A stretch of 64,000 nt of DNA from Schleiferiaceae bacterium (GTDB lineage Bacteria > Bacteroidota > Bacteroidia > Flavobacteriales > Schleiferiaceae), in contig JAGYKI010000012.1 in assembly GCA_018401735.1 (NCBI GenBank), positions 6,683 through 70,682 of the forward strand, given 5' to 3'. A model generated the notes under the pieces. That model saw nothing but the letters and a program-made list of their open reading frames with translations. It was not told the origin of the DNA and ran no database searches. Positions 12,247 to 26,049 of the stretch are shown piece by piece. How positions within the stretch are numbered: position 1 is the first letter of the stretch; every line of letters begins with the position of its first letter. The position numbers and the translations under genes are program-made.

Positions 12247-14256
12247 ATGAAAGCCCCACTTTACCTAAGCATTCTAGTGATAGCCTTTAGTGCTTGTAAA
12301 AAAGATGACGATTCTTCCAACACCGCGAATCCTATCCCTAGCGACATCAAAGAATTAAATATTCCCGCTAGTTTCAATTTCGAAACCGATCAAACTATAA
12401 ATGCAAGCATTAGCGTAAAAAGCTTATCGGATAATGACTTAGCAGGAGTGAAAATTAACTTTTACACGAATCACCCCGATTCTAACGGTGTGCTGCTGAG
12501 TAGCGGCTTTACCAATGCCAACGGAGTATTAGCAACAGAAGTAGCTCTTCCTGCTTATCTAAACCACCTTTACGTAGAAGCGGGCGCAGTAGGCTTTGCC
12601 AATATTCAAAAGCTCGCTGTTTCAACTAACCTTAGTGCACAATTCGGTGGTACTTTACCACCAAGGACTTTTAAGACTCAAAAAACTAATGCAACCCGAA
12701 TTCCGATTAGCGGAAAATACTATTACATGGGGGCTTTTAATGAAGGAAAATACAAAGGTTTGCCTCTTTACCTCGAAAACCCAGGTGATGTGGTAAGCCA
12801 AGAGTTTTTAGATGATGTAAATGCTTCGCTTCCCGAAGATCGTCCAGTACCCGTGCACAATCCACAATACCTAACCTCTGGTAATGAACTGGATGTTAAG
12901 GTTACAGCCATGAGTGATGTTTGGATTACCTTCATTGGTGAAGGCGCTGGTTATAAAAACTCTCTAGGCTATTACGTTTACGATTCAAATAATCCGCCTG
13001 CCACGGCTAATGATATAGATTCCGTCTTTATCATCCTGCCCAATGCTTCTTTAGCTTATAGCTCAGGTGAATTATACGCTGGAGACAAAGTTAAACTAGG
13101 CACCTTCCCTGCCGGCAAATCTATCAGTTGGGTTTTGTTTCAGAATGCATGGGACGGGACGAATGTTAATGTAAATGCCACTAAATTTTATTCTCGCAGC
13201 GATTTAAATACAAGTGAGAGTGACCCAACTAAACGCCAACATACCGTGCAGCTTTCTGATATCGGTCGTCAGCTTTTATTAAATGGCTTCGAAGATCAAA
13301 CCCGCTCTATTAGCAGTGATAATGATTTTAATGATCTTATTTTTTACGTTTCGGCAAATCCTTGGTCAGCTATTGAAACGGGCAATGTTCCTCCGGTAAC
13401 TCCCGAAGCCGACGACGATGGCGATGGGGTGTCCAACGAAAGTGATGCCTTCCCCAATGATCCGAATCGCGCCGTAATTAATAATTTCAGTGGTACTCTA
13501 GCTTACGAAGATTTATGGCCTTCACAAGGGGATTATGACTTTAATGATATGGTTATCGACTATGATATAGATCACATCGTAAATGGCAATAATGATATTG
13601 TAGATATTGAGGCAGATTGGACGGTTCGTGCCGTTGGCGCTGGTTTTGAAAATGGCTTTGGTTTTCAATTTAGCAATATAGATGATGCTAATATTAATGC
13701 CGTAAGTGGACAGAGCTTACAAGAAAACCTGGTAAGTACTAATGCCAATGGTACCGAAGCAAATCAGAATTCGGCTACAATTATTGCTTTTGATAATGTT
13801 TATAAAGTAATTCCTGCCTCGGGTTCCAGTTTCATTAATACCGTACCCGGACAAAGTACGGTAGCACCGGTAACGCTGAGCAATGTCATTAACTTTAGTA
13901 CACCTCAAAGCCTTGCTAATGTTGGACTACCACCTTATAATGCCTTTATATTCGCCAATGCTACTCGTGGTAGAGAAATTCATCTTCCTGGTTATGCCCC
14001 CACTAGCTTAGCTGATGCTAGTCTTTTTGGCAGCGGTGCCGATGCTACCAATCCAGCAAATGAATATTACTATAAAACGAGTTCCGGCTTGCCTTGGGGA
14101 ATAAATATTACGGAACAGTTTAATTACCCTATAGAGTTTAGCCCTATCAATCAGGCCTATCTAAATTTCTCTACTTGGGCTACTTCTGGCGGAACTTTAA
14201 ATACTAACTGGTTTACTGATGCCCCTGGGAATTTAGATCCGGCTTTTATTTATTAA
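12247..14256 (+). CDS. LruC/DUF4842 domain lipoprotein
   Basis: Lipobox FSAC; GFEDQTR...DNDFNDLIF; LAYEDLWPSQGDYDFNDMV; GLPWG...AYLNFSTWATSGG. Confidence 0.88.
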   Translation: MKAPLYLSILVIAFSACKKDDDSSNTANPIPSDIKELNIPASFNFETDQTINASISVKSLSDNDLAGVKINFYTNHPDSNGVLLSSGFTNANGVLATEVALPAYLNHLYVEAGAVGFANIQKLAVSTNLSAQFGGTLPPRTFKTQKTNATRIPISGKYYYMGAFNEGKYKGLPLYLENPGDVVSQEFLDDVNASLPEDRPVPVHNPQYLTSGNELDVKVTAMSDVWITFIGEGAGYKNSLGYYVYDSNNPPATANDIDSVFIILPNASLAYSSGELYAGDKVKLGTFPAGKSISWVLFQNAWDGTNVNVNATKFYSRSDLNTSESDPTKRQHTVQLSDIGRQLLLNGFEDQTRSISSDNDFNDLIFYVSANPWSAIETGNVPPVTPEADDDGDGVSNESDAFPNDPNRAVINNFSGTLAYEDLWPSQGDYDFNDMVIDYDIDHIVNGNNDIVDIEADWTVRAVGAGFENGFGFQFSNIDDANINAVSGQSLQENLVSTNANGTEANQNSATIIAFDNVYKVIPASGSSFINTVPGQSTVAPVTLSNVINFSTPQSLANVGLPPYNAFIFANATRGREIHLPGYAPTSLADASLFGSGADATNPANEYYYKTSSGLPWGINITEQFNYPIEFSPINQAYLNFSTWATSGGTLNTNWFTDAPGNLDPAFIY

Positions 14257-14277
14257 ACACTTTTGTTGAGATACATG

Positions 14278-14314
14278 AAAGCGGCTAATTGCAAATTGAT
14301 TAGCCGCTTTTTTT
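14278..14314 (+). terminator. Rho-independent terminator
   Basis: aaagcggctaat-tgcaaattg-attagccgcttttttt. Confidence 0.8.
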
Positions 14315-14400
14315 ATTTCCGCATTTTGTGCTGCTCCTTCCCCAAATTGTGAAATTCAAGCTTTCTTGAATTTGTACTATTGCATTAGAATTTAAAAGGA

Positions 14401-15309
14401 ATGGCAACAAATATCATCGAGTTCAAAACCATTAGTCAATTACACCAACAATTGGGTTTGGCGGAACCCAAGCATCCCCTTATTACCGTTATCGACGCGG
14501 CAGAAATGGAAATCAGCGATCAATATGTAGGCTTGCAAATGATGAGCGATTTCTACATGATTTCCATGAAAGATAAAAGCTGTGGTTTAGAATATGGCCG
14601 CAATAGCTTCGATTTTGCAGAGGGAGTCTTGGTTTTTAGTGCCCCCAAGCAGTTAAGCACCATTACCAACACTATTAACAAAGGCGATGTTAGCGGTTGG
14701 ATGCTCTTCTTTCACCCTGATCTTATTCGGGGCAGCCATTTACAGGAGAACATTAAAGACTTTAACTTCTTTAATTATGAAGTATTCGAAGCTCTCCACC
14801 TTTCGAGCGATGAAGAAAAGATTGTTAACCATTGCATTCGCGATATCAAAAACGAATACGAACAACGCATCGATAATCATAGCCGCCGAGTTTTAGTGTC
14901 TTTTATCGATCTACTATTAAGTCATAGCCTGCGTTTTTACGAAAGACAGTTTAATACGCGTAGTACCCAAAACCAAGACTTAGTACAGCAGTTTCAAAGT
15001 GACTTAGAGGCCTATTTTAAGGAAGAAAAACATCTCGATTTAGGCGCTCCAAGTATTGCTTACTTTGCCGAAAAAGCTGCTCTTTCCCAGCATTACTTTA
15101 GCGACCTTCTTAAAAAAGAAAGCGGCAGAGCGGCAAAAGATCACATCAACGACTTTATCATTGAAAAAGCCAAAGACCAATTGCGCAATACCAGAAATCC
15201 CATTAGTACTGTGGCTTACGAGCTTGGTTTCAATTACCCCCACTACTTCACCCGTTTATTTAAATCTAAAACCGGCCAAACGCCCCTCGAGTTTCGAAAC
15301 TTAAACTAG
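14401..15309 (+). CDS. AraC-family transcriptional regulator
   Basis: C-terminal double HTH (ISTVAYELGFNYPHYFTRLFKSKTGQTPLEFR). Confidence 0.93.
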   Translation: MATNIIEFKTISQLHQQLGLAEPKHPLITVIDAAEMEISDQYVGLQMMSDFYMISMKDKSCGLEYGRNSFDFAEGVLVFSAPKQLSTITNTINKGDVSGWMLFFHPDLIRGSHLQENIKDFNFFNYEVFEALHLSSDEEKIVNHCIRDIKNEYEQRIDNHSRRVLVSFIDLLLSHSLRFYERQFNTRSTQNQDLVQQFQSDLEAYFKEEKHLDLGAPSIAYFAEKAALSQHYFSDLLKKESGRAAKDHINDFIIEKAKDQLRNTRNPISTVAYELGFNYPHYFTRLFKSKTGQTPLEFRNLN

Positions 15310-15441
15310 AGGTATTACTAAACAAATCTGCGCAAGCCAAAAATAGAAAAGGTGCGATGCCATTTTTGTGTTAGTCTTTCCGCACTTTGTGTACTTTTCT
15401 CCACTTAAATAAAGTCACCTTTGCATCATAAATAAAAAAAT

Positions 15442-16500
15442 ATGACTACCATAGACCCTAAAAAACCCGTATTAGTAACTGGAGCCACTGGCTATGTGGC
15501 CGCTTGGTTAATCAAAAGATTACTCGACGAAGGCATTACCGTACACGCTGCGGTAAGAAATCCCGATAGTAAAAAGAAAACCGCTCACCTCGATGCTTTA
15601 GCGGCTAATTCGCCCGGCATCATACGATATTTCAAAAGCGACTTATTAGACATGGGCTCTTACGAGGCTGCCATGGAAGGTTGCGAGTTGGTTTATCACA
15701 CGGCCTCCCCTTTCACCTCAGATTTTAAGGATGCCCAAAAAGATCTAATTGATCCCGCCCAAAAAGGAACCGCTAATGTTTTAGAGAGCGCTAAAAAAGT
15801 GGCCGGCGTTAAGCGCGTGGTAGTTACCAGTAGCTGTGCCGCTATTTACACCGATGCCATCGATTGCACAAATGCACCCAATGGTATTATCACCGAAGAA
15901 ATTTGGAATACCACCGCCTCTTTAGAATATCAGCCTTATTCTTACTCCAAAACTGTCGCCGAGCAAAAGGCCTGGGAAATTGCTAAAAGTCAGTCACAGT
16001 GGGATCTTGTAACCATCAACCCTTCCTTTGTGATGGGACCACCTTTAAATCCACAGGCCACTACCTCCGAAAGTTTTAGCATCCTCAAACAAATGGGCGA
16101 TGGTACTTTTAAAACGGGTGCGCCCAAGCTGGGAATCGGTGTGGTAGATGTTCGCGATGTGGCCGAAGCGCATTATCAAGCGGGCTTTAACCCGGCCGCG
16201 CACGGACGTTATATCACTTCCGCGCACAATACCAATTTCTTAGAAATGTCGCTGGCCTTAAAAGATAAATTTGGGGCAAAATTCCCCATTGCCAAATCTG
16301 CGGCGCCCAAATGGTTATTAATGTTGGTGGGACCTTTTATCAATAAAACTCTCAGCCGCAAGTTTTTACGCAATAATGTAAATGTGGCTTTTAATGCCGA
16401 TAACTCCAAAATTAAAAAAGAACTGGGCCTTAAATTCCGTCCGCTACAGCAGACCATGGAAGACGGTTTTCAAGTTTTGGTGGACGAGAAAATAGTCTAG
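15442..16500 (+). CDS. NAD-dependent epimerase/dehydratase (aldehyde-reductase-like extended SDR)
   Basis: VLVTGATGYVA; HTASP; YSYSK catalytic motif. Confidence 0.9.
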   Translation: MTTIDPKKPVLVTGATGYVAAWLIKRLLDEGITVHAAVRNPDSKKKTAHLDALAANSPGIIRYFKSDLLDMGSYEAAMEGCELVYHTASPFTSDFKDAQKDLIDPAQKGTANVLESAKKVAGVKRVVVTSSCAAIYTDAIDCTNAPNGIITEEIWNTTASLEYQPYSYSKTVAEQKAWEIAKSQSQWDLVTINPSFVMGPPLNPQATTSESFSILKQMGDGTFKTGAPKLGIGVVDVRDVAEAHYQAGFNPAAHGRYITSAHNTNFLEMSLALKDKFGAKFPIAKSAAPKWLLMLVGPFINKTLSRKFLRNNVNVAFNADNSKIKKELGLKFRPLQQTMEDGFQVLVDEKIV

Positions 16501-16556: not shown

Positions 16557-16640
16557 GGGCCTTACCCTCCGGGTCGGGCTTTACGCTCCAAGTCCTCGCT
16601 CGTACCTCGCTGTGGGCTTTACGCTGCAATCCCTAAGGCG
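16557..16640 (+). ncRNA. Flavo-1-like structured RNA/repeat, copy 1
   Basis: 84 bp, 78/84 identical to 24049-24132. The gggtcgggct...gtcctcgct...gggcttt...atccct pattern recalls the Flavo-1 motif (from memory, not searched). Confidence 0.55.
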
Positions 16641-16739
16641 GGGTTTTCGTTTGGGAAACAAAAGCTCGTCATAAAATTATGACGCTGAACAGCTCTCTTT
16701 GCTAAATTTATATCTTTCATTATCAAACACTAAGCTGTC

Positions 16740-16829
16740 TTATTTAGAAAGTTTTTAAATAAGGCTTGCCCATTTTAACAAGGGATTTTAGATTTGCAGC
16801 ATCATACTATTTTAATTAAATCTAAATAA
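16740..16829 (+). promoter_or_regulatory. Two Fur-box-like palindromes flanking a Bacteroidota -33/-7 promoter
   Basis: ttatttagaaagtttttaaataa (16740-16762) and tattttaattaaatctaaataa (16808-16829); TTG at 16766-16768 and TAGATTTG at 16789-16796. Confidence 0.7.
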
Positions 16830-16834
16830 GCATA

Positions 16835-18070
16835 ATGCGTAAATCTCTGCCCTTACTCTCGGCTTTAACTCTTGGTTTTGTCTTTTTTTCCAGTTGCGAA
16901 AAAGAAGAAACTAGCACGTCGAATCCCAGTCCATCTCTTACTGCTCCTACTTTCTACAATTTTGAAAGAAACAATGCCAGCAGCGTTAATTTTTCGGGCC
17001 AAAGCGAACGCCTCGCCATGGGCGCAGAACTCAGTGCGGCCCTGCTCGACTTTTCTAAATCTGCGCAAGATTTACAAGAAATGTTTGCGAACGCCGACTC
17101 TCTCGGTAATGATGTAAACCCTTATTCGGCTGCCGCCCTTAATGCCTCCAGCAAAAGCATCCGTTCTAAGGTGGCGGCCTCTTATGAACTTTTCAGCGCC
17201 AATACCGCTCTTAGTGCCCGCATTAAAGCAGATATGGAATCTTTTATCGATTTACAGGTAGCCGAGATATATTCTACTCGTAATGAAGCTGCATCTGCTG
17301 GCAAAGCAGGACAAATTGCCGATGGTTCAGCTGTACGTTATGTAAACGCTCAAGGTTTCGAATACAATGAGTTCCTTATAAAATCTTTAATCGGTGCACT
17401 CTGTGTTGATCAAATGTTGAATCACTACCTCAGTCTCGCGGTTTTAGATGAAGCCAATAACCGCGAGGATAATGATAATGGCCTCCTTTTAGAAGGCACC
17501 AACTATACTAATATGGAGCACAAATGGGATGAAGCCTATGGCTATCTTTTTGGTCTAGCCGATGACCCTATAAATCCCTTGGTAAACCTAGGTGCAAATG
17601 ACGTCTTCCTTAATAAATACCTCGCAAGGGTTAATGGAGATTCTGACTTTAGTTCTTACGCCCAAGATATTTTCAATGCCTTTAAATTAGGTCGAGCGGC
17701 TATTGTAGCGGGTGAATACGCCCTACGCGATCAACAAATTGCGATAATAAAAGACCGCGTTTCTAACATTATTGGCAACTTCTCGGTTTATTACTTACAA
17801 GCGGCTAAAAATGCTTTTGCTGCCAATCAACCTGGAACAGCCCTACACGATTTAGGGGAAGCCTATGGTTTTATTTATAGCCTAATGTTTACGCAAAATC
17901 CTAATACTCAAGCACCCTATTTTACCGCTCAAGAGGTGGAGAATATTTTAAGCGACCTAAGCAACCAAGGTTCAAATGGTTTTTGGGATTTAGACGCTGC
18001 CACGCTTGATAATTTATCCAACCAAATTGCCGACCGTTTCAGCTTTAGCCTAAACCAAGCTGCCAATTAA
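16835..18070 (+). CDS. DUF4856 domain lipoprotein
   Basis: Lipobox FSSC; APTFYNFERNNASSVNFSGQSER; MEHKWDEAYGY; FKLGRAAIV. Confidence 0.85.
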   Translation: MRKSLPLLSALTLGFVFFSSCEKEETSTSNPSPSLTAPTFYNFERNNASSVNFSGQSERLAMGAELSAALLDFSKSAQDLQEMFANADSLGNDVNPYSAAALNASSKSIRSKVAASYELFSANTALSARIKADMESFIDLQVAEIYSTRNEAASAGKAGQIADGSAVRYVNAQGFEYNEFLIKSLIGALCVDQMLNHYLSLAVLDEANNREDNDNGLLLEGTNYTNMEHKWDEAYGYLFGLADDPINPLVNLGANDVFLNKYLARVNGDSDFSSYAQDIFNAFKLGRAAIVAGEYALRDQQIAIIKDRVSNIIGNFSVYYLQAAKNAFAANQPGTALHDLGEAYGFIYSLMFTQNPNTQAPYFTAQEVENILSDLSNQGSNGFWDLDAATLDNLSNQIADRFSFSLNQAAN

Positions 18071-18084
18071 TTGTATTAATAAAG

Positions 18085-19209
18085 ATGCAAATGATGTATA
18101 GAAGAATGATGGGACGAATACTAAGCTTGTTCCTAGTGATGATGGTGAGTTTTGCATGTTCTAACGAGGAATCTGGCGACAGCCAAAACCAAGATAACTT
18201 TGATAGAGCTACCATGCTCGTGCACTGGGCCGACGATTATATTTTGCCTGCTTATCTAAATTACCAGCAGGAAGTAATCGCTTTAAAAAGTGCCGCTGCT
18301 CAGTTTAGCAGCGCTCCTAGCCTTAGTCTGCATACCAATTTGCACGCCCAATTTGTAAAAGCTTATACAGCTTGGCAGTGGGTTAGCTTTTTGGAAATCG
18401 GTCCCGCTGAAGCCTATAATCTGCGAAACTTCACGAATATCTACCCGACTAGCGCCACTGAAATTGAAGAAGCGCTAATAAATAGCAATTACAATCTCAG
18501 CCTCCCTTCTACTTTTAACGAACAAGGTTTCCCCGCTATCGACTATTTACTAAGTGGCTTTGGCGATGCTGCTACAACAGTGAACCAATTTAGCAGCAAT
18601 GCTGATTATGGGCGCTACCTAATTGCTTTGACCGAACGTTTGGAAACTATGAGTACGCAGGTCTTAAATGATTGGAATACAAGTTACCGCAGTGAATTTA
18701 TAAGCAACACCGGCTCTTCTGCTACTGCTTCCACTAATAAATTAATTAACGATTTTATTTTCCACTTCGAGAAAGAACTTAGGGCCGGAAAAGTAGGCAT
18801 TCCCGCGGGTGTATTTTCGGGTAGTCCCTTGCCGCAAAATGTGGAAGGCTATTACAGCGATAGCCTGAGCAAGTCACTGTTTAGGGAATCTTTAAAGGCC
18901 CACCGTGCCTTTTTTCAAGGGAATGGTTTCTTAAATAGGGCTTCAGGCAACAGCCTTGAGCAATATTTAAACTACCTGAATATCGAACATCAGAACGAGC
19001 TTTTAAGCGCTAGAATTAGTAATCAAATGGTGATGGCCGAAAGCTTGGCCAAGGATTTACCGGCAAGCTTTTCTTTGGTTGCCGCTAATTCCAATCAGGA
19101 TTTATTAGCCCTTTACGATGAGCTCCAAAAAGCGGTGGTTTTACTCAAGGTAGATATGCTACAGGCCCTCAATGTTCGCGTAGATTATATCGACGCCGAC
19201 GGCGATTAA
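18085..19209 (+). CDS. Imelysin-family lipoprotein
   Basis: Lipobox SFAC; AWQWVSFLEIGPA; QGFPAIDYLL; acidic tail DYIDADGD. Confidence 0.85.
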   Translation: MQMMYRRMMGRILSLFLVMMVSFACSNEESGDSQNQDNFDRATMLVHWADDYILPAYLNYQQEVIALKSAAAQFSSAPSLSLHTNLHAQFVKAYTAWQWVSFLEIGPAEAYNLRNFTNIYPTSATEIEEALINSNYNLSLPSTFNEQGFPAIDYLLSGFGDAATTVNQFSSNADYGRYLIALTERLETMSTQVLNDWNTSYRSEFISNTGSSATASTNKLINDFIFHFEKELRAGKVGIPAGVFSGSPLPQNVEGYYSDSLSKSLFRESLKAHRAFFQGNGFLNRASGNSLEQYLNYLNIEHQNELLSARISNQMVMAESLAKDLPASFSLVAANSNQDLLALYDELQKAVVLLKVDMLQALNVRVDYIDADGD

Positions 19210-20579
19210 TGTTTACAAAGCTAAAATATTATCTCTCCCAAGATGTGGAGGCCGCTCCTTTAGCGGCCTTTCGCATTTTCTTTGGCATCATGATGTTTAG
19301 TAGCATCCTGCGCTTTTGGTCTTTTGGATGGATTGAAAAATTGTACCTCCAACCTAAGTTTCACTTTAGCTTTTATGGCTTCGAATGGGTGAAACCACTC
19401 GGAGTTTACACCTATCTCATTTTCTTTATCTGTGCTGGCGCGGCGCTTTGCATTGCCCTTGGCTTCTGGTATCGTCTAGCCATCAGCACCTTTTGGCTCA
19501 GCTTCACTTATATCGAGTTGATGGACAAAACCACTTATCTCAATCACTATTACTTTATTTCAGTTTTAAGCTTTCTCCTAATCTTCTTACCTGCCCAGCG
19601 CTACTTCTCGGTAGATGCTTATCGAAGGCCAAAAATCGCTTCTACAAAGATTCCACGTTACAGTATTGATGCCATTAAAGCCCTACTTTTTATTGTATAC
19701 TTCTACGCGGGTTTGGCAAAAATCAATTCCGACTGGCTCCTAGAAGCCCAACCTCTCGCCACTTGGTTACCCGGTAAATACGATTTGCCCTTTATAGGCT
19801 CCCTACTAGAAAAACGATGGTTGCATTATACTTTCAGTTGGGGCGGTATGCTCTACGATTTAAGCATCCCTTTTCTGCTACTTTATAAACCTACTCGCAA
19901 TTTTGCCTTTGTTTTGGTGGTGATATTCCACGTTCTTACTCGCATTCTCTTTCCCATTGGAATGTTTCCTTACATAATGATTGTGAGCGCCTTAATCTTC
20001 TTCGACCCTAGCCTCCATCAGCGCATGTTGAAATTCATTCAAAATATCTTGGGTCCTCCCGCCTTTCCTAGGCATCTGCCAGCGAGCAATAAACAGAAGA
20101 ATGGTGCCTTAAAAAAAGTGCAAATAGGCTTTATTAGCCTCCTACTCATTAGTCAAATCCTTATTCCGTGGCGTCACCTATTTTATCCGGGCGAACTCTT
20201 TTGGCATGAGCAAGGTTTTCGTTTTAGCTGGCGCGTAATGCTTATGGAAAAGGCGGGTTATACCAATTTTAAAATTTACGATCCGCAAAGGGGTGAAAGC
20301 TTTCAAGTGAACAATCAACAATTTTTAAGCGCTTTCCAAGAAAAGCAAATGAGCTTTCAGCCCGATTTTATTCTCGAATACGCCCATTTTCTCGAAGACC
20401 ATTTCCGCAGCAGCGAAAACCGAGGCGATCTAGAAATTTATGCGGAGAGTTATGTAGCCTTAAACGGTCGTTCGAGTCAACTATTTATTAACCCCAAAGT
20501 CGATCTCAGTCTCGAAAAACGTGGCTGGGGCAAGAAAACCTGGATTCTTCCATTCAATGATACGATTTACGGTTTATAG
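19209..20579 (+). CDS. HTTM domain protein (vitamin K-dependent gamma-carboxylase-like)
   Basis: LAAFRIFFG; DKTTYLNHYY; YFYAGLAKINSDW; QGFRFSWRVMLMEK. Confidence 0.9.
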   Translation: MFTKLKYYLSQDVEAAPLAAFRIFFGIMMFSSILRFWSFGWIEKLYLQPKFHFSFYGFEWVKPLGVYTYLIFFICAGAALCIALGFWYRLAISTFWLSFTYIELMDKTTYLNHYYFISVLSFLLIFLPAQRYFSVDAYRRPKIASTKIPRYSIDAIKALLFIVYFYAGLAKINSDWLLEAQPLATWLPGKYDLPFIGSLLEKRWLHYTFSWGGMLYDLSIPFLLLYKPTRNFAFVLVVIFHVLTRILFPIGMFPYIMIVSALIFFDPSLHQRMLKFIQNILGPPAFPRHLPASNKQKNGALKKVQIGFISLLLISQILIPWRHLFYPGELFWHEQGFRFSWRVMLMEKAGYTNFKIYDPQRGESFQVNNQQFLSAFQEKQMSFQPDFILEYAHFLEDHFRSSENRGDLEIYAESYVALNGRSSQLFINPKVDLSLEKRGWGKKTWILPFNDTIYGL

Positions 20580-23025
20580 CTTTTTAGTGTTCTGCGGCTT
20601 TTCCCTCAGTGCACAAGTAAAACTTGAAGGGCAAGTGTTTTCGGCCATCGATAGTAACGCCTTGGCCGCGGTAGAAGTCTTCCATGTGCAAAGTGAAAAC
20701 CTGGTGATCACCAATACCACAGGGGCATTCAAGCTTTTTGTCGATGCTAAGTCAACGCAAGACTTGGTCTTTTTCAGCTATCAATACCAAAGCACGAAAG
20801 TCCAGCTAAATCTTAGTCAAGATAGCAGCCTAAAATTCTACCTCCATCCTTTAGGTGAAGAGCTTGATGAAGTACTAATCCAGCAGAAACGCAGCGAGGC
20901 TTTTCGCGGCAGCAGACTGAACGAAGTGGAAGGAACCGCCGTTTATGCCGGTAAAAAGTCGGAAGTAATCGTCCTTGAAAATACCGTGGCCAATCTCGCG
21001 GCTAATAACGCCCGCCAGGTATTTGCCCAAGTGGTGGGTTTAAACATCTATGAAAATAACGATGCCGGCTTACAGTTAAACATCGGTGGCCGCGGCCTCG
21101 ATCCTAATCGCAGCAGTAATTTCAATGTGCGGCAAAATGGCTACGACATTAGCGCCGATGTTTTAGGTTACCCAGAAAGTTATTATACACCCACCGCCGA
21201 GGCTTTAGATGAAATACAAGTGGTACGCGGCGCCGCTTCTTTGCAGTATGGCACCCAATTTGGCGGCTTCCTCAATTTTAAAATGAAAGGGCCCGCAAAA
21301 GACACTTCTTTGGCTATTGTTCAGCGTAATACTCTTGGTAGTTTTGGACTTTTCACCAATTTCACCAGCCTTAGCGGGACCAAAGGTAAATGGGGCTATT
21401 ATAGCTTTTTTAATTATAAAGAAGGACAAGGATGGCGGCCCAATTCCCAGTTTAGCTCGCGTAATGTCTACGCCCATTTAGAGTATAACTTCACCTCTGA
21501 AACCCAATTAGCGGCCGAATATACGCTGCTAAATTATTTGGCCAAACAGGCAGGCGGCTTAACCGATAGCCAGTTTGAGCGCGATCCGCTGTACAGTAAT
21601 CGCAGTCGTAATTGGTTTCAGGTGAATTGGCAACTCTACGCTTTAAAATTCAAGCATCGCTTTGCCAATACGGCCGATTTCAGTGTAAACCTATTCGCCC
21701 TCAATGCCCAGCGCTATGCGGTTGGTTTCAGAGGAAACCCAAATAATCTCAACGCCAATCCTATCAGTCAGTTAGACGAGCAAAATGGCGATGATACCTA
21801 TCTCAATCCCCGTGATTTAATTAAAGGCCGCTTTGCTAATGCGGGCGCGGAAATACGCTATTTACAGCGCTATGCAATTAGGAACACCAAAAGTGTTTTT
21901 CTTATCGGCAGCAAATACTACCACGCACAAAACTCAGCCCTGCAAGGCCCCGGAAGCAATGCCAGCGATGCTAATTTTTCTTTGGCCCAAAGCGAATTCC
22001 CCGACTATGCCAGTCAGAGTGAATTCGAATTCCCCAACCGAAATTTTTCCCTCTTTAGCGAAAACATCTTTTACCTCAGTCCTAAATTCTCCCTCACTCC
22101 CGGAATGCGCTTCGAGTATATAAAAACCGCTAGTGCTGGCACTTACCAATTGGTAAATTTCGACAATGCGGGAAACCCTATTTTCCGCGACACACTTAGC
22201 GATAACCGCGACTTCGAAAGAGCCTTTGTGCTAGCGGGTTTAGGGGCCTCTTTTAAACCTAAAACGGGACTAGAACTCTACGCGAACTTCTCCCAAAACT
22301 ACCGCTCTGTAACTTTCAGCGATATACGCACCGTAAATCCAACCTTTATTATTGATCCCGATATCAGCGATGAAACCGGTTTTACCGCCGACATCGGAAC
22401 TCGCGGGAAAATCAAGGAAAAAATCAGCTTTGACTTAAGCCTTTTTAGCTTGCTTTACAATAATCGCATTGGCATTATCCTCAATAACCGCGCACAAAGA
22501 GTGCGGAAAAACATCGGCAATGCACTCATCTACGGAGCGGAAACTTTTTTGGAAGTTAATTGGCTTAATACCTTTGGAAAAAGCGACAGTCCTTACCAGC
22601 TGAGTTCCTTTGTTAATGCGGCCTTCACCTCTTCGCGCTACTTAGCTAGTGAAGATAATAATGTAGTGGGTAAAAGAGTGGAATTCATCCCGCAAACTAA
22701 TTTAAAACTTGGCCTAAAAGGCGGCTATAAAAAGTTGGTGGCAAGCTTACAATACACCTACATCAGCGAGCAATTTACCGATGTCGAAAACTCCGCTGTC
22801 CCTATGGCAGGCGACCTGCGCGAAGGGATTATTGGTTTAATTCCCGCCTATCAAATCCTCGATTTTTCCCTCTCGTATCAATACCAACGCTACACCCTAG
22901 AAGCTGGTTGTAATAACCTCGCCAATGAAATTTACTTTACCCGTCGCGCTACAGGTTATCCAGGCCCAGGTATTATTCCCTCCGATCCACGTAGTTTTTA
23001 TCTAAGCTTGGGGGTTAAATTTTGA
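20557..23025 (+). CDS. TonB-dependent receptor (FecA-like)
   Basis: Plug motif GLDPNRSSNFNVRQNG; VVRGAASLQYG; C-terminal RSFYLSLGVKF. The ATG at 20557 is preferred. Confidence 0.92.
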   Translation: MIRFTVYSFLVFCGFSLSAQVKLEGQVFSAIDSNALAAVEVFHVQSENLVITNTTGAFKLFVDAKSTQDLVFFSYQYQSTKVQLNLSQDSSLKFYLHPLGEELDEVLIQQKRSEAFRGSRLNEVEGTAVYAGKKSEVIVLENTVANLAANNARQVFAQVVGLNIYENNDAGLQLNIGGRGLDPNRSSNFNVRQNGYDISADVLGYPESYYTPTAEALDEIQVVRGAASLQYGTQFGGFLNFKMKGPAKDTSLAIVQRNTLGSFGLFTNFTSLSGTKGKWGYYSFFNYKEGQGWRPNSQFSSRNVYAHLEYNFTSETQLAAEYTLLNYLAKQAGGLTDSQFERDPLYSNRSRNWFQVNWQLYALKFKHRFANTADFSVNLFALNAQRYAVGFRGNPNNLNANPISQLDEQNGDDTYLNPRDLIKGRFANAGAEIRYLQRYAIRNTKSVFLIGSKYYHAQNSALQGPGSNASDANFSLAQSEFPDYASQSEFEFPNRNFSLFSENIFYLSPKFSLTPGMRFEYIKTASAGTYQLVNFDNAGNPIFRDTLSDNRDFERAFVLAGLGASFKPKTGLELYANFSQNYRSVTFSDIRTVNPTFIIDPDISDETGFTADIGTRGKIKEKISFDLSLFSLLYNNRIGIILNNRAQRVRKNIGNALIYGAETFLEVNWLNTFGKSDSPYQLSSFVNAAFTSSRYLASEDNNVVGKRVEFIPQTNLKLGLKGGYKKLVASLQYTYISEQFTDVENSAVPMAGDLREGIIGLIPAYQILDFSLSYQYQRYTLEAGCNNLANEIYFTRRATGYPGPGIIPSDPRSFYLSLGVKF

Positions 23026-23069: not shown

Positions 23070-24030
23070 TTGTTTACTACCATGACTATGAAAAAAATCC
23101 TTTTAGTATTCACCTTCGGCATCTTTTTTAGCCTCAATTTATATAGTCAAGATTTACAAATTTTCAATTTGAGCCAACAAGAGTTTTCGGGCAACAACTC
23201 TATCCTATACACCTCTCTATCTGATATTTATAGGATTTCCTCCAATCCCGATTCCTCTGCGCTACCTTTGGATTTGCTAGGCAATGACCGCGATACGGTT
23301 TACCCAATTATTACCCTCGACTCTAACTTTCGCGCCTTGTTTTTAGCCTGCACCGGACTGAGTGAAAGGCATAATGTATACCTCTACGACGCTATCCAAT
23401 CTAAAACCCAAATCATCCCCATTCATAAACTAAAATCTGTGGCGGTTTTAAGTATCTATTACGGTGATTACTATGGTTCGGTAGAAACCTATGATTATCA
23501 AATTGGTTTTGAAATCAATCCCAAATTTGTAGAAAATAAGATGGGTAGCTTCACTTTCATTGCCTTTGGTAAAGAAAACCCTTTTGCCGAAAAGCCACTC
23601 AGTCCCCTTATTTGGGAAGCCATAAGCCCTAATTCCGATCCCTATATTACAGGCCTACTTATCAAGTGACAGCCTCATTAAAACTTCTTTCACAAATACT
23701 CACCGCTTTGAAATACATAATCTTAGCTATTATTTAGCCGATATCGAAAATCACATGGCTAGTGCGCGAAAGCTCTGCGTATATGATGAGATAAGTAAAA
23801 ACTGGATTTTCGACCATAATTTCCTCGAAGGCGAAAGTGCTTCCCACACCCCCATTATCGCCACACCCGATACCGAGCCTAACAATGTTTATCAGTGGAC
23901 CGGTGATTTCTTTAAAAATCAACCTACTATGATTTTTGGCATGCAGTATCAATCCTTTGGATGCCCTAGCTTTTTCACGCTTGAAAAAAACGAAAAGGAA
24001 ATTGCGCTCAACTGCGACAACCGCCATTAA
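23070..24030 (+). pseudogene. Exported hypothetical protein split by one +1 frameshift
   Basis: Deleting one G in acaggcc (about 23651) reads ...ITAYLSSDSLIK...ENHMASARKL, fusing the two ORFs into one of about 320 aa. Confidence 0.75.
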
Positions 24031-24048: not shown

Positions 24049-24132
24049 GGGCCTTCCCCTCTGGGTCGCGCTTTACGCTGCAAGTCCTCGCTCGTACCTC
24101 GCTGTGGGCTTTCCGCTGCAATCGCTAAGGCG
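24049..24132 (+). ncRNA. Flavo-1-like structured RNA/repeat, copy 2
   Basis: 84 bp near-identical to 16557-16640; directly follows a T-run. Confidence 0.55.
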
Positions 24133-24249
24133 ACTAAAATCTTACTTTTCGGTTATTAGCTAAAAACTAGTCTCGGCATTAGGCTTGGTCTTGATATCTT
24201 TGAAACTTTCTTCACCCTGTAATCTAATGTAATCCCAGTAAATCCCCAC

Positions 24250-26028
24250 ATGAGAAAATACTTTATACTTCTTTTCCTGAGTACATTTAGTGCTTTTTCT
24301 CAACCAAGTCCTTGGGGAACGGGTTCCGTTTTTAATCAGAGTTTGGATAGTTTAGACAAAGACTACATTCTTGTTTCCCACGTAGGCTTAAGCTTAAACC
24401 TCAATAACTATTTAAACAACTACAATTACAATATCCACATTCCTTCAAATTACAATGGAAGCGAAGCTTTTGGACTGATTACCTTTATTAACGCCGCGAA
24501 TAATGGTAATTTAATTAGTAGTTGGCTACCCGTTTTAGCGGAGAAAAAACTCATTCTAGTGGCTGGTAATAATATCGGTAATAGCGTTGCCGTAGATACT
24601 CGCATTGGCGTTGTTTTGGCTGCTTGCCAGTCGCTGCAGAAAACACTCAATATTGATAGCACCCGGATTTATAGTTCTGGCGCTTCAGGGGGCGGTCGTT
24701 CTGCTTCCCACCTTTTGTTCTGCTTTCCCGAAATATTTGCGGGTATGATTCCCAATTGCGGCGCTAACTATCTACGGCAAGTAGACCAAGACTATGAAAC
24801 CCAAAACCCTAATTCGCATTACGAATATATTTTCCCCTACACGAGCGCCCAATTCGTGTATGTAAAAAGCTTTAATCCCATTCTCGCCTACTTAACCGCT
24901 TACGATGATTTCCGCGAAGGCGACCTCATGAATATCTACCACAACGGTGCCGAGCCCGACGGTTTCGAGGCTAAAATATTAGAAATCAGCGGCGGTCATT
25001 GCAACACCAGCACCGAGCAATTTCGCGATGGCTTAAACTTTCTCGAACATCCATTTTGGGAAGTTGCAAAAGACTCTTTCGCTTCAAGCGGTCCCATTAC
25101 GGGAAATGGTTTTAAACTACTAAATGCGAACATCCTAAATAATAATTTGGTCTTAGCCCCAGACCTAAAAGCCCGCGCTTATACTCGTAATCCTCTACAA
25201 TGGAACGATCCTAAAGGCGCCATTATTCGGGCTTCCTTTCGTTTAGATAGCCTCAGCTTCGCGGAAAATTGTATACTCAATTTGGGCTTTTACGATTTAG
25301 TAGATACCAGTCTTTTCAATCAGTCAATTGGCGATTCCCTTCTTACTGCCACGCCCGGTCTTCTCATTACTTATAAGTTCGATTCTATCGCCCCTAAAGT
25401 TTCGGTTCTAATCAGTAGCCCCAGTAAAGGTTATAATGGCGATACTATATTTAGTGGCCGTTTTATTGATTTCAGTGCTAATAGCAAGCAGGCCATAAAG
25501 CTCCACCTCTGGCAAGATGAATGGCGTCTTGAATTCAGTCAGCATTTCGACCCCAATAGCGTTCAAGGAATTAATGCCGTGAAACTACTGGACGACCATC
25601 GCTCGCTCCGCATTAGACCTAGCACCAATACTTTATGGGATACCAGCGATTATCATTCAGGCACTTTAATTAGTCTCTACAGCGAAAGAATTAAGCCTAA
25701 TCTTAATAGTAGCACAGTGGCCTTTGATTACTTTCAGATGATAAGCGCCGACACCAGTGCTAGTGCACCCTTAGGGATATCAAAGCCTGATTTTCAAAAC
25801 CGCTACTTTAGTCTCTATCCCAATCCCAATAATGGCTTTTTCTACCTCAGTAGCTTAGATGCTGATCCGCTAACCTTTAGCATTAACAATAGCCAGGGAA
25901 AGCTTTGTGCTCAACACCGACATTCCGCTAAAAAATCGCAGCTTGATCTTAGGCATCTGCCGCAAGGCCTATATTACTTGCGCTCCGAGCAAGGAGATGT
26001 GCAAATTAAATTTATTATTGCCCCTTAA
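24250..26028 (+). CDS. T9SS-secreted alpha/beta-hydrolase (esterase-like) with type-A CTD
   Basis: IDSTRIYSSGASGGG nucleophile elbow; GGHC; SLYPNPNNG...GLYYL CTD. Confidence 0.7.
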   Translation: MRKYFILLFLSTFSAFSQPSPWGTGSVFNQSLDSLDKDYILVSHVGLSLNLNNYLNNYNYNIHIPSNYNGSEAFGLITFINAANNGNLISSWLPVLAEKKLILVAGNNIGNSVAVDTRIGVVLAACQSLQKTLNIDSTRIYSSGASGGGRSASHLLFCFPEIFAGMIPNCGANYLRQVDQDYETQNPNSHYEYIFPYTSAQFVYVKSFNPILAYLTAYDDFREGDLMNIYHNGAEPDGFEAKILEISGGHCNTSTEQFRDGLNFLEHPFWEVAKDSFASSGPITGNGFKLLNANILNNNLVLAPDLKARAYTRNPLQWNDPKGAIIRASFRLDSLSFAENCILNLGFYDLVDTSLFNQSIGDSLLTATPGLLITYKFDSIAPKVSVLISSPSKGYNGDTIFSGRFIDFSANSKQAIKLHLWQDEWRLEFSQHFDPNSVQGINAVKLLDDHRSLRIRPSTNTLWDTSDYHSGTLISLYSERIKPNLNSSTVAFDYFQMISADTSASAPLGISKPDFQNRYFSLYPNPNNGFFYLSSLDADPLTFSINNSQGKLCAQHRHSAKKSQLDLRHLPQGLYYLRSEQGDVQIKFIIAP

Positions 26029-26049
26029 TATCCAATTGTATTTAGTGCC

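What the first reader, a model, noticed from the sequence alone, without database searches (positions are those of the whole stretch)
16835..23025. Gamma-carboxylase homologue embedded in a Fur-controlled iron-uptake operon
The DUF4856 lipoprotein, imelysin lipoprotein, HTTM protein and FecA-like receptor are tightly coupled (14-bp gap, 1-bp overlap, 23-bp overlap). The HTTM protein keeps segments equivalent to those of the animal vitamin K-dependent carboxylase around His160 (TYLNHYY) and catalytic Lys217/218 (AGLAKINSDW). Flavobacteria make menaquinone, so a cofactor is available. Hypothesis: the enzyme carboxylates Glu residues on the co-encoded surface proteins, or a small ligand, to create metal-chelating sites. 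The cluster is common in Bacteroidota annotations, but I know of no mechanistic description.
Basis: partly seen in the sequence, partly recalled or inferred. Interest (0 to 1): 0.62.

Follow-up and report, generated by a model that had tools for sequence, protein, structure and literature searches.

The report
Iron-starvation operon with vitamin-K-carboxylase homologue
Four tightly linked genes form an iron-starvation uptake operon, conserved across Bacteroidota, that includes a bacterial relative of the human blood-clotting enzyme vitamin-K-dependent carboxylase; its cofactor site is intact, its substrate-docking parts are missing, and its role in iron uptake is still unknown.

Summary
DUF4856 lipoprotein (16835-18070), imelysin-like lipoprotein (18085-19209), HTTM/VKGC-like membrane enzyme (19209-20579) and TonB-dependent receptor (20557-23025) have a 14-bp gap, a 1-bp overlap and a 23-bp overlap. 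The same order occurs in 74-79 of 80 loci from other genomes. Two Fur-box-like sites bracket a Bacteroidota-type promoter. The motif recurs upstream of 98% of orthologous operons, against 13% of control intergenic regions. The Riemerella homologues are induced by iron restriction and fur deletion (PMC5609570).

The enzyme folds like human GGCX (TM 0.84). It keeps catalytic Lys218, His160, Asn159 and the naphthoquinol pocket. It lacks PBD-2, the Arch and the Cys99-Cys450 disulfide, and four of six Glu-pocket residues differ. MenA, MenB and MenD are present in the genome; no VKOR was found.

So menaquinol-dependent chemistry is likely, but Glu carboxylation of the co-encoded proteins is untested and only moderately probable (about 0.3). 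Rivals are action on an imported iron ligand or iron redox, or a substitute for the peroxidase of classical imelysin operons.

This scan has already reported the same operon in at least 27 other genomes. It is a new variant of known kinds, mechanistically uncharacterised and readily testable.

The parts
16742..16760 (.). Fur-box-like operator 1 (ATTTAGAAAGTTTTTAAAT), 93 nt before the start codon and just upstream of the -33 element
   Evidence: It scores 16.2 with a PWM built from the Riemerella anatipestifer Fur boxes (PMC5609570, Table 5). Only 29 sites score >=14 in the 3.2-Mb genome. Orthologous operons carry a site at -90 to -104.
16766..16796 (+). Bacteroidota-type promoter: -33 TTG (16766-16768), 20-nt spacer, -7 TAGATTTG (16789-16796)
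   Evidence: Read directly from the sequence. The consensus TTG / TAnnTTTG comes from established knowledge of Bacteroidota promoters. The promoter has not been mapped experimentally.
16809..16827 (.). Fur-box-like operator 2 (ATTTTAATTAAATCTAAAT), between the promoter and the start codon
   Evidence: PWM score 14.9; it is the second of the 29 genome-wide sites. Orthologues show a second cluster of sites at -27 to -30.
16835..18070 (+). DUF4856 lipoprotein (411 aa): lipobox Cys21, acidic tether CEKEE, all-alpha domain with the invariant motif M-E-H-x-W-D-E (227-233)
   Evidence: Pfam PF16148, E 2e-123. The AF2 model has pLDDT 93.3. No solved structure matches by fold or by profile. 88 columns are >=95% conserved in 74 orthologues. 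The tether is acidic in 66 of 74.
18085..19209 (+). Imelysin-like (M75) lipoprotein (374 aa) of the IPPA/PA4372 type, with a degenerate GxHxxE motif (G106-P-A-E-A-Y)
   Evidence: Pfam PF09375, E 7e-24. The best solved relative is IPPA 3pf0, E 1e-4. It is the only imelysin in the genome. It lies next to HTTM in 79 of 80 loci.
19209..20579 (+). HTTM / vitamin-K-dependent-carboxylase-like inner-membrane enzyme (456 aa): transmembrane domain plus the first lumenal lobe (PBD-1) only
   Evidence: Pfam PF05090, E 5e-83, and PF22777, E 9e-54. phmmer to human GGCX gives E 2e-44 over human residues 51-504. The AF2 model has pLDDT 84.9; Foldseek TMq is 0.81-0.84 to GGCX structures and to nothing else.
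19545..19547 (+). Codon of His113, equivalent to human His160
   Evidence: Alignment. It is invariant in 120 orthologues and in 140 of 142 distant homologues.
19719..19721 (+). Codon of Lys171, equivalent to the human catalytic base Lys218
   Evidence: Alignment. It is invariant in 120 orthologues and in 139 of 142 distant homologues.
20557..23025 (+). TonB-dependent receptor (822 aa from ATG 20557) with an N-terminal CarboxypepD_reg-like domain, a plug and a barrel; its start lies 23 nt inside the HTTM gene
   Evidence: Pfam. NCBIfam gives TonB-siderophore 107 bits (cut-off 223.5) and FecA 95 bits (cut-off 1100), both below cut-off. A 20- or 23-nt overlap with HTTM is found in about 46 of 73 loci. 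233 columns are >=95% conserved.

Best explanation
The four genes are one Fur-repressed operon that is switched on by iron shortage.

The two lipoproteins carry the acidic tether that typically sends Bacteroidota lipoproteins to the cell surface. There they would work with the TonB-dependent receptor to capture and import an iron species (inferred).

The HTTM protein sits in the inner membrane with its active site and PBD-1 lobe facing the periplasm (by homology). It binds menaquinol and deprotonates it with Lys171. It lets the quinolate react with O2 to make the strong base of the vitamin K carboxylase mechanism (inferred from a fully conserved cofactor site).

My committed guess for the last step is that this base is used to carboxylate an acidic residue of a co-encoded lipoprotein. 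The imelysin-like protein is the first candidate. The modification would happen while the protein is still unfolded and anchored at the inner membrane after Sec export. It would create a malonate-type (Gla-like) metal-chelating group.

Likelihood by step:
- Operon and iron/Fur control: about 0.9.
- An active menaquinol-dependent enzyme: about 0.7.
- A protein-carboxylation target among the neighbours: about 0.3.
For: Gene order and coupling:
- The order DUF4856-imelysin-HTTM-receptor holds in 74-79 of 80 loci from Flavobacteriaceae, Cyclobacteriaceae, Balneolaceae, Saprospiraceae and others, while the flanks vary.
- The HTTM stop lies 20 or 23 nt inside the receptor gene in about 46 of 73 loci. 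The imelysin-HTTM distance is <=30 nt in 43 of 77.
- In a 301-genome phylum sample, 38 of 45 DUF4856 genes lie about 2.0-2.4 kb from an HTTM gene.

Iron control:
- Two of the 29 genome-wide Fur-PWM sites lie in the intergenic region upstream of the operon, between the previous gene's stop (16500) and the operon's start codon (16835).
- 69 of 70 orthologous upstream regions beat the 95th percentile of shuffles, and the sites sit at conserved positions.
- 98% of operon-upstream regions score >=14, against 13% of 178 other promoter-bearing intergenic regions.
- Two Fur-family genes are present in the genome.
- The Riemerella anatipestifer homologues RAYM_09779-09794 rise under iron restriction and in a fur mutant (PMC5609570).
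- Ferritin or CxxCH haem-binding genes lie next to the core in 9 and 11 of 72 loci.

The enzyme:
- TMq is 0.84 to human GGCX over about 460 columns.
- K218, H160, N159, V210, A214, W223, G259, F286, F294, F299 and the D222-R476 pair are identical in the window protein, in 119-120 of 120 orthologues and in most distant homologues (105-141 of 142, lowest at A214).
- HTTM is the most conserved protein of the operon, at 58-65% identity.
- MenA, MenB and MenD are present.

Topology: both lipoproteins have a lipobox followed by an acidic tether, in 66 of 74 and 62 of 77 orthologues. They therefore pass the periplasmic face of the inner membrane, where the enzyme sits.
Against: - No modification has been observed anywhere.
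- The enzyme lacks PBD-2 (human 508-604) and the Arch, which the human enzyme needs for propeptide docking and activity (bioRxiv 10.1101/2025.02.09.637231, sections 6-7).
- Glu-pocket residues differ: N158L, L394G and R436Q are invariant, and Y395 is F in 66 of 120 orthologues. K217 is Ala and the Cys99-Cys450 disulfide is absent.
- The tethers hold about three times more Asp than Glu, and 28 of 74 DUF4856 and 34 of 77 imelysin sequences have no Glu there. No propeptide-like or Gla-domain-like motif was seen.
- No VKOR homologue is in this 99%-complete genome. This is weak evidence, because bacterial VKORs mostly lack epoxide reductase activity (PMC4555120).
- Paralogous HTTM enzymes with the same catalytic residues sit between ribF and serS, with no lipoprotein partner.
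Confidence: 0.33

Rival explanations
1. The enzyme acts on the imported cargo, not on a protein. One version: it carboxylates or otherwise deprotonates a small carboxylate ligand, as MloH does on a polyketide-peptide intermediate. The other version: it uses the Lys-deprotonated menaquinol as a reductant to release Fe from the chelate brought in by the receptor. Either way it would hand iron to an inner-membrane permease encoded elsewhere.
For: - The operon encodes no inner-membrane transporter.
- The genome has a cytochrome c-FTR1 fusion permease (C12:81823-83730, two REXXE motifs) with a Fur-box-like site 24 nt before its start. No clear FeoB was found.
- The linker that walls the human Glu pocket has gained invariant charged residues in bacteria: E334, R338, R342, E347, K348, against human N392, G396, D400, S405, R406. 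This suggests a different, more anionic substrate.
- PBD-2 is missing, so the site should be more open.
- No VKOR was found. That fits chemistry without epoxide formation.
- A small-molecule precedent exists: MloH, as cited in bioRxiv 10.64898/2026.08.19.745780.
Against: - This fold has no precedent for iron reduction.
- The conserved PBD-1 lobe and the R476-D222 and K154-D442 contacts suggest that a protein or peptide still docks.
- The charged linker residues are shared with the ribF-linked paralogues, so they are not specific to iron operons.
- The cargo of the receptor is unknown.
Confidence: 0.22
2. The enzyme is an epoxidase only. It stands in for the peroxidase (EfeB/DyP or di-haem cytochrome c peroxidase) that accompanies imelysin-like proteins in classical operons. 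It would supply an oxidant, such as a quinone hydroperoxide, for an Fe(II)/Fe(III) step at the imelysin.
For: [quoted passage not shown] Leptospira imelysins flank a cytochrome-c-type peroxidase (PMC7567364). Here no peroxidase is in the operon, and HTTM takes the place beside the imelysin in 79 of 80 loci.
- The cofactor and O2-activating site is conserved while the Glu pocket is not.
- FTR1-type permeases work with an oxidation step. This is established for Fet3-Ftr1 and proposed for EfeUOB (PMC3143127, PMC9174327).
- From my own knowledge: the Leptospira orthologue was reported as epoxidase-only.
Against: - Stoichiometric epoxide formation with no known recycling enzyme would drain the quinone pool.
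- There is no evidence that the vitamin K peroxide intermediate can leave the site or oxidise iron.
- Asn159 and His160, which hold the substrate carboxylate in the human enzyme, stay invariant. That argues a carboxylate substrate is still bound.
Confidence: 0.12
3. The HTTM protein has no catalytic role in the operon. It would be a membrane scaffold or chaperone that holds or sorts the two lipoproteins or the receptor.
For: - Its translational coupling to the receptor is conserved.
- Half of the human substrate-binding apparatus is lost.
- One orphan paralogue (L085) has lost the His160 and Asn159 equivalents.
Against: The catalytic Lys, His160, Asn159 and the whole naphthoquinol pocket are invariant in 120 orthologues at only 58-65% overall identity. 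This is hard to explain without catalysis.
Confidence: 0.06
4. The operon is not about iron. The receptor imports another nutrient or metal, and the Fur-like sites belong to another regulator.
For: - The receptor falls below the cut-offs of the siderophore and FecA models.
- The best genome-wide PWM hit lies between a LacI-type regulator and another TonB receptor.
- The PWM comes from another species.
Against: - The Riemerella homologues respond to iron and to fur deletion.
- The operator motif is conserved upstream of 98% of orthologous operons.
- Ferritin, haem-binding and imelysin genes are neighbours.
Confidence: 0.05

Closest known systems
Riemerella anatipestifer RAYM_09779-RAYM_09794 (TonB-dependent receptor, 'vitamin K-dependent gamma-carboxylase', imelysin lipoprotein, hypothetical protein; Guo et al. 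2017, PMC5609570)
   Same: It has the same four-gene set. The genes are up-regulated by iron restriction and in a fur mutant. The Fur-box consensus of that species (ATTTAGAATTATTCTAAAT) matches the two sites upstream of the window operon and the sites upstream of 69 of 70 orthologous operons.
   Different: Only expression data exist there. There is no mutant of these genes, no biochemistry and no proposed role for the carboxylase homologue. I did not align the Riemerella sequences themselves.
[quoted passage not shown]
   Same: The transmembrane HTTM fold plus the first lumenal lobe match (TMq 0.81-0.84, 26-27% identity). The catalytic Lys218, His160, Asn159, the naphthoquinol head and tail pocket, and the D222-R476 and K154-D442 contacts are conserved.
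   Different: The window protein has 456 residues against 758. It has no PBD-2, no Arch and no C-terminal region. The Cys99-Cys450 disulfide is absent and K217 is Ala. Glu-pocket residues N158, L394, Y395 and R436 are changed. It has extra invariant charges (E103, R322, E334, R338, R342, E347). It has no propeptide-bearing substrates and no VKOR partner in the genome. It sits in an iron-regulated operon.
Fur-regulated imelysin operons and EfeUOB-type systems (P. aeruginosa PA4370-PA4373, V. cholerae VC1264-VC1266, Leptospira LruB locus, EfeUOB; PMC3143127, PMC9174327)
   Same: An M75 imelysin-like lipoprotein sits in a Fur-controlled iron-uptake gene set. The window protein is closest to the IPPA/PA4372 class, which lacks the His of GxHxxE.
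   Different: Those operons pair imelysins with an EfeB/DyP or di-haem peroxidase, and often with an FTR1/EfeU permease. Here the neighbour is an HTTM enzyme, with a DUF4856 lipoprotein and a TonB-dependent receptor. An FTR1-type permease is encoded elsewhere in the genome.
Bacterial HTTM enzymes with a studied or predicted role: MloH of malonomycin biosynthesis, the Leptospira VKGC orthologue, and the HTTM-DUF5819 pairs predicted in bioRxiv 10.64898/2026.08.19.745780
   Same: These are bacterial relatives of GGCX with the cofactor site retained and the metazoan clamp incomplete. A partner protein or fused domain may supply the missing side of the clamp.
   Different: MloH acts on a small-molecule intermediate in a biosynthetic cluster. 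The DUF5819 partners are single-pass membrane proteins. None lies in an outer-membrane uptake operon. I did not align MloH or the Leptospira protein here.
Bacteroidota surface-lipoprotein plus TonB-receptor uptake pairs (SusCD-like, HmuY-HmuR, XusAB)
   Same: The receptor has the Bacteroidota-type N-terminal CarboxypepD_reg-like extension. The lipoproteins have an acidic export-signal-like tether and are encoded beside the receptor.
   Different: The lipoproteins are not SusD-, HmuY- or XusB-like. None of those systems has an inner-membrane enzyme as a fixed part.

Membership tests
HTTM / vitamin K-dependent carboxylase superfamily (Pfam PF05090 + PF22777) | HTTM transmembrane domain and VKGC lumenal domain above the curated cut-offs, with the GGCX fold | tested here: met
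   PF05090 scores 279 bits (cut-off 27.7) and PF22777 scores 181.9 bits (cut-off 27.7). Foldseek TMq is 0.81-0.84 to 16 GGCX entries and to nothing else.
HTTM / vitamin K-dependent carboxylase superfamily | Catalytic base Lys218 and naphthoquinol pocket (V210, A214, W223, G259, F286, F294, F299, H160, M401) | tested here: met
   All are identical except M401V, which is conservative. They are invariant in 119-120 of 120 orthologues.
Gamma-glutamyl carboxylase in the strict (metazoan GGCX) sense | Glu-binding pocket N158, N159, H160, L394, Y395, R436 | tested here: not met
   Only N159 and H160 are kept. N158L, L394G and R436Q are invariant in orthologues. Y395 is F in the window and F66/Y54 in orthologues. 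The AF2 model is least confident exactly here, at residues 108-111 and 334-339.
Gamma-glutamyl carboxylase in the strict (metazoan GGCX) sense | Propeptide exosite formed by PBD-1 plus PBD-2, and the Arch needed for activity | tested here: not met
   The protein ends at the equivalent of human residue about 504. TMt is only 0.55-0.60. PBD-2 (508-604) and the Arch are defined in bioRxiv 10.1101/2025.02.09.637231, section 6.
Gamma-glutamyl carboxylase in the strict (metazoan GGCX) sense | Cys99-Cys450 disulfide | tested here: not met
   Both positions are Phe in the window. Position 99 is Phe in 120 of 120 orthologues.
Gamma-glutamyl carboxylase in the strict (metazoan GGCX) sense | Substrates with a propeptide and a Glu-rich Gla domain; demonstrated Glu-to-Gla conversion | not testable with these tools
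   I saw no Gla-domain-like or propeptide-like motif. The lipoprotein tethers are Asp-rich, and Glu is absent from 28 of 74 DUF4856 and 34 of 77 imelysin tethers. Mass spectrometry is needed.
Vitamin K cycle | Cofactor supply (menaquinone biosynthesis) and an epoxide-recycling VKOR | tested here: inconclusive
   MenA, MenB and MenD are above cut-off. No VKOR PF07884 match was found in a 99%-complete genome. Bacterial VKORs mostly lack epoxide reductase activity anyway (PMC4555120).
Imelysin-like (Peptidase_M75) iron-uptake proteins | M75 domain | tested here: met
   PF09375 scores 85.3 bits (cut-off 23.5). PDB 3pf0 (IPPA) matches at E 1e-4.
Imelysin-like (Peptidase_M75) iron-uptake proteins | GxHxxE metal-site motif of the canonical imelysin/IrpA class | tested here: not met
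   The motif reads G106-P-A108-E-A-Y. Ala108 is conserved in >=95% of 78 orthologues. This resembles the IPPA/PA4372 class described in PMC3143127.
Imelysin/EfeUOB-type operons | Co-encoded EfeB/DyP or di-haem peroxidase, and often an FTR1/EfeU permease | tested here: not met
   Neither is in the operon. An FTR1-cytochrome c fusion lies on another contig.
Fur regulon | Fur operator overlapping the promoter; iron-responsive expression | tested here: inconclusive
   The motif evidence is strong and Fur genes are present. Expression data exist only for the Riemerella homologues.
FecA / TonB-dependent siderophore receptors | Score above the curated NCBIfam cut-offs | tested here: not met
   FecA NF041676 scores 95.3 bits against 1100. 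TIGR01783 scores 107.5 bits against 223.5. The plug and barrel domains are present. No FecA-type signalling domain was reported by Pfam; the N-terminal domain found is CarboxypepD_reg-like.
Bacteroidota surface-exposed lipoproteins | Lipobox Cys followed by an acidic lipoprotein export signal | tested here: met
   The window has C-EKEE and C-SNEESGD. At least 2 acidic residues occur at +1 to +6 in 66 of 74 and 62 of 77 orthologues. hhalign aligns only this region between the two families. Surface exposure itself is inferred from published export-signal work, recalled from my own knowledge.

The most novel reading that the evidence does not exclude
This would be the first vitamin-K-dependent protein carboxylation system in prokaryotes. 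Under iron starvation, the HTTM enzyme would use menaquinol and O2 to install Gla-like (or beta-carboxy-Asp) malonate groups on the imelysin-like and/or DUF4856 lipoproteins as they leave the inner membrane. The cell surface would thereby gain high-affinity chelating sites that feed iron to the co-encoded TonB receptor.
Probability: 0.3. Interest if true: 0.85.

Novelty: new variant of a known kind. Interest (0 to 1): 0.58.

Why it matters
Bacterial relatives of the vitamin K-dependent carboxylase are very numerous. I counted 1665 clusters at 50% identity with E <= 1e-30, and more than 8000 clusters at 90% identity. Almost none has a known substrate.

This operon fixes one such enzyme next to two candidate protein partners, a receptor and a clear inducing signal (iron shortage), in at least several hundred Bacteroidota genomes. 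That makes the question testable with one deletion, one mass-spectrometry experiment and one epoxidase assay.

Each possible answer would be new:
- Carboxylated surface lipoproteins.
- A quinol-driven step in iron release.
- A replacement for the imelysin-associated peroxidase.

Any of them would also explain a widespread iron-acquisition route of marine and animal-associated Bacteroidota.

Tried and rejected
1. DUF4856 as a second, divergent imelysin. This is rejected for this family. hhalign aligns only the signal peptide, lipobox and acidic tether. Foldseek finds no PDB match (best E 0.25; Algp7 ranks 48th with TM about 0.2). The profile search of PDB is empty. In a few relatives (L083, L089) an ORF lying beyond the core imelysin, in the place of DUF4856, does match the imelysin profile.

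2. Oxygen dependence tested by co-occurrence with haem-copper oxidase. This was uninformative: 272 of 301 sampled genomes have COX1. My guess that the HTTM-free family f22 was anaerobic was wrong, since 45 of its 63 genomes have COX1.

3. VKOR as a required partner. None was found, but the argument is weak.

4. Expression in this organism.

5. Naming the organism. The nearest HTTM clusters (69-79% identity) carry no names. The genome search kinship labels suggest a class different from that of the largest HTTM-positive family. I leave it as 'Bacteroidota, family undetermined'.

6. Literature. No paper holds 'DUF4856', and none holds both 'HTTM' and 'imelysin'.

7. The sigma-70 promoter and terminator scan gave no more hits than shuffles. 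A Bacteroidota-type promoter was read by eye instead.

8. The downstream ORF 23070-23669 as a fifth operon gene. It is not conserved in any of 80 loci and has no family.

9. Complex prediction of HTTM with its neighbours could not be done with the tools offered.

Full report
**Observation.** The window carries four + strand ORFs at 16835-18070, 18085-19209, 19209-20579 and 20521/20557-23025. Pfam assigns them to DUF4856 (E 2e-123), Peptidase_M75/imelysin (E 7e-24), HTTM plus VKGC_lumenal_dom (E 5e-83 and 9e-54), and a TonB-dependent receptor with a CarboxypepD_reg-like N-terminal domain, a plug and a barrel. The junctions are a 14-bp gap, a 1-bp overlap (TAATG) and a 23-bp overlap. The last holds if the receptor starts at ATG 20557, which gives a good signal peptide. 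Both small proteins have lipoboxes.

**Conservation.** The HTTM protein has more than 8000 relatives at the 90% cluster level, and the listed orthologues are 61-90% identical. An exhaustive search finds 1665 clusters at 50% identity with E <= 1e-30. In 80 loci fetched from named genomes, tblastn finds imelysin in 79, the receptor in 79 and DUF4856 in 74, always in the window's order and strand. These genomes include Flavobacteriaceae, Cyclobacteriaceae, Fulvivirga, Ekhidna, Saprospiraceae and the Balneolaceae genera Gracilimonas, Rhodohalobacter and Balneola. The window's flanking genes are found in none of them. HTTM is the most conserved protein (58-65% identity), followed by the receptor (49-58%), DUF4856 (39-56%) and imelysin (34-50%). 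The HTTM stop codon lies 20 or 23 nt inside the receptor gene in about 46 of 73 loci, and the imelysin-HTTM spacing is <=30 nt in 43 of 77. In a 301-genome phylum sample, HTTM occurs in 77 genomes and DUF4856 in 45, and 38 of those 45 DUF4856 genes lie about 2.0-2.4 kb from an HTTM gene. Where Pfam misses DUF4856, my own profiles still find imelysin-HTTM-receptor, often preceded by a divergent DUF4856 or, in L083 and L089, accompanied by a second imelysin-like ORF.

**Iron control.** The homologous Riemerella anatipestifer genes are RAYM_09779-09794 (receptor, 'vitamin K-dependent gamma-carboxylase', imelysin lipoprotein, hypothetical protein). They are up-regulated under iron restriction and in a fur deletion strain, and that paper gives the species' Fur boxes (PMC5609570). 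I built a palindromised PWM from those boxes.
- It scores 16.2 at window 16742-16760 and 14.9 at 16809-16827. Only 29 sites in the 3.2-Mb genome reach 14.
- The two sites bracket a Bacteroidota-type promoter: TTG at 16766 and TAGATTTG at 16789-16796.
- Upstream of the orthologous DUF4856 genes, 69 of 70 regions exceed the 95th percentile of shuffles. The sites cluster at -90 to -104 and at -27 to -30.
- As a stricter control, 98% of operon-upstream intergenic regions score >=14, against 13% of 178 other promoter-bearing intergenic regions of the same loci.
- The genome has two Fur-family genes.
- Ferritin and small CxxCH haem-binding genes lie next to the core in 9 and 11 of 72 loci.

I rate iron/Fur control at about 0.9.

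**The enzyme.** phmmer aligns residues 5-448 with human GGCX residues 51-504 (E 2e-44). An AlphaFold2 model (pLDDT 84.9, pTM 0.86) matches only GGCX structures in the PDB. TMq is 0.81-0.84 but TMt only 0.55-0.60, so about 40% of the human enzyme has no counterpart. I took the functional residues from the cryo-EM study (bioRxiv 10.1101/2025.02.09.637231, sections 6 and 8) and mapped them.
- Conserved: the catalytic base K218; H160 and N159; the naphthoquinol head pocket (V210, W223, F286, F294, F299, with M401 as Val); the tail tunnel (A214, G259); and the D222-R476 and K154-D442 contacts. These are identical in the window and in 119-120 of 120 orthologues, and they are kept by most of 142 distant homologues (105-141 at most positions; K154 in 64).
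- Different: K217 is Ala. N158, L394 and R436 are invariantly Leu, Gly and Gln. Y395 is Phe here, and Phe in 66 and Tyr in 54 orthologues. The Cys99-Cys450 pair is Phe/Phe. PBD-2 (508-604), the Arch and the C-terminus are absent.
- The linker that walls the human Glu pocket reads E-[EQ]-G-[FY]-R-F-S-W-R-V-M-L-M-E-K, against human N-G-L-Y-G-Y-S-W-D-M-M-V-H-S-R. It has gained two Arg and two Glu that are conserved across bacteria.
- The model is least confident exactly at 108-111 and 334-339, the two pocket loops.

I conclude that the menaquinol-binding and deprotonating half of the machine is intact, that the substrate-recognition half has been rebuilt, and that the canonical propeptide exosite does not exist.

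**Cofactor.** No VKOR homologue was found. This is only weak evidence against a vitamin K cycle, because bacterial VKORs mostly lack epoxide reductase activity (PMC4555120).

**The partners.** DUF4856 gives a very confident all-alpha model (pLDDT 93.3). It has no structural or profile match in the PDB and no detectable relation to imelysin beyond the leader. Its invariant residues include M227-E-H-x-W-D-E233, H338 and E342, which look like a metal site (inference). The imelysin-like protein is closest to IPPA (3pf0). It lacks the His and Glu of the GxHxxE motif, with Ala108 conserved. Both proteins carry an acidic tether right after the lipidated Cys, in 66 of 74 and 62 of 77 orthologues. By published work on Bacteroidota lipoprotein export signals (my own knowledge), that tether marks surface exposure. 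They must therefore pass the periplasmic face of the inner membrane, where the enzyme sits, which makes modification in transit topologically possible, as in the ER. But the tethers hold three times more Asp than Glu, and many have no Glu at all. I saw no propeptide-like or Gla-domain-like motif.

**Context in the genome.** The operon has no inner-membrane transporter. Elsewhere (C12:81823-83730) the genome encodes a 636-aa fusion of a CxxCH cytochrome c domain with an FTR1-type permease. It has two REXXE motifs, and a Fur-box-like site lies 24 nt before its start. No clear FeoB was found. The operon's imelysin is the only one in the genome. Classical imelysin operons pair the imelysin with an EfeB or di-haem peroxidase (PMC3143127; PMC7567364). 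Here HTTM takes that place.

**Paralogues.** Relatives of the window's order carry a second HTTM class, about 30-34% identical to the window protein, between ribF and serS, with its start overlapping ribF. These keep K218, H160, N159 and the pocket, and are more human-like at N158, N290 and M401. Residues that mark the operon class are E103, L111, T244, V343, E347 and Q380. So the enzyme family is not confined to iron operons, and a lipoprotein partner is not a general requirement.

**Mechanism.** Shown:
- a conserved, translationally coupled operon;
- a conserved Fur-type operator;
- an intact cofactor site;
- a menaquinone pathway.

Inferred:
- periplasmic orientation;
- surface location of the lipoproteins;
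- menaquinol/O2 chemistry.

Guessed: the target. I commit to carboxylation of a co-encoded lipoprotein in transit, imelysin first because it is the invariant neighbour, at about 0.3. The rivals are action on the imported ligand or quinol-driven iron release feeding the FTR1 permease (0.22), an epoxidase-only surrogate for the imelysin-associated peroxidase (0.12), a non-catalytic role (0.06) and a non-iron function (0.05).

**Comparison and novelty.** The closest described case is the Riemerella locus, for which only expression is known. The enzyme is a member of the HTTM/VKGC superfamily. It fails three defining tests of a metazoan-type gamma-glutamyl carboxylase: the Glu pocket, the exosite and the disulfide. 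The operon works like a Bacteroidota lipoprotein-plus-receptor uptake system and like the imelysin iron systems, but with an enzyme that neither has. No paper in the library mentions DUF4856 or links HTTM with imelysin. Earlier notes of this scan report the same operon in at least 27 other genomes, with similar verdicts. My analysis agrees with them and adds the following:
- the residue-level split between the cofactor site and the substrate site;
- the controlled Fur-box statistics;
- the Asp-rich tethers;
- the absence of a VKOR;
- the Fur-box-preceded cytochrome c-FTR1 permease;
- the ribF-linked paralogue class.

I class it as a new variant of known kinds, of moderate to high interest, because it makes the function of bacterial vitamin K carboxylase homologues directly testable.

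Noticed in passing
window 16568-16644 (-) and 24060-24139 (-): Two Flavo-1-like RNA motif copies flank the operon and the ORF downstream of it. Rfam RF01705 scores them 30.7 and 40.7 bits, both just below the gathering score of 42.
   Followed up: partly
window 16667-16684: A perfect palindrome, CGTCATAA-AA-TTATGACG, lies between the Flavo-1-like element and the Fur boxes. The scan lists it as terminator-like on the - strand. Its function is unknown.
   Followed up: no
window 23070-23669 (+): A 199-aa ORF with a signal peptide starts 44 nt after the receptor stop. It has no Pfam, NCBIfam or PHROG family and is not found next to the operon in any of 80 related loci.
   Followed up: partly
own genome G000 C12:81823-83730 (outside the window): A 636-aa fusion of a CxxCH cytochrome c domain with an FTR1-type iron permease. 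It has REGLE and REAFE motifs, and a Fur-box-like site (ATTTTTAATTGGTCTAAAT) lies 24 nt before its start. It is a candidate inner-membrane step for iron brought in by the operon.
   Followed up: partly
loci L082, L084, L086, L087, L088 (relatives of the window's order): A second class of HTTM + VKGC_lumenal proteins (437-442 aa) sits between ribF (FAD synthetase/riboflavin kinase, start overlapping) and serS. The catalytic Lys, His and Asn are intact. This is a housekeeping-looking context with no lipoprotein or receptor.
   Followed up: partly
locus L085:7799-9169 (-): An orphan HTTM copy, 50% identical to the window protein, has lost the His160, Asn159 and Arg338 equivalents (Ala, Ser, Leu). 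It is probably a decaying or repurposed paralogue.
   Followed up: no
own genome G000 C88:98875: The best genome-wide match to the Fur PWM (24.5, ATTTATAATAATTCTAAAT) lies between a LacI-type regulator and another TonB-dependent receptor with a CarboxypepD_reg-like start. Other hits precede an IscA-like gene (C56:105010) and an MBL-fold plus rhodanese gene (C55). The latter recalls the rhodanese gene in the Riemerella Fur list.
   Followed up: partly
loci (for example L034, L077): In 11 of 72 loci a roughly 157-aa CxxCH haem-binding-domain protein lies within about 100-200 nt of the four-gene core, and in 9 of 72 loci a ferritin lies within about 900 nt. These are variable iron-related add-ons.
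   Followed up: partly
window 12226-16500 and 24250-26931: The neighbours are unrelated to the operon and not syntenic elsewhere. They are a DUF4842/DUF4114 protein, an AraC-type regulator, an NAD-dependent epimerase, a T9SS-tailed S9-like peptidase and an aldose 1-epimerase.
   Followed up: no
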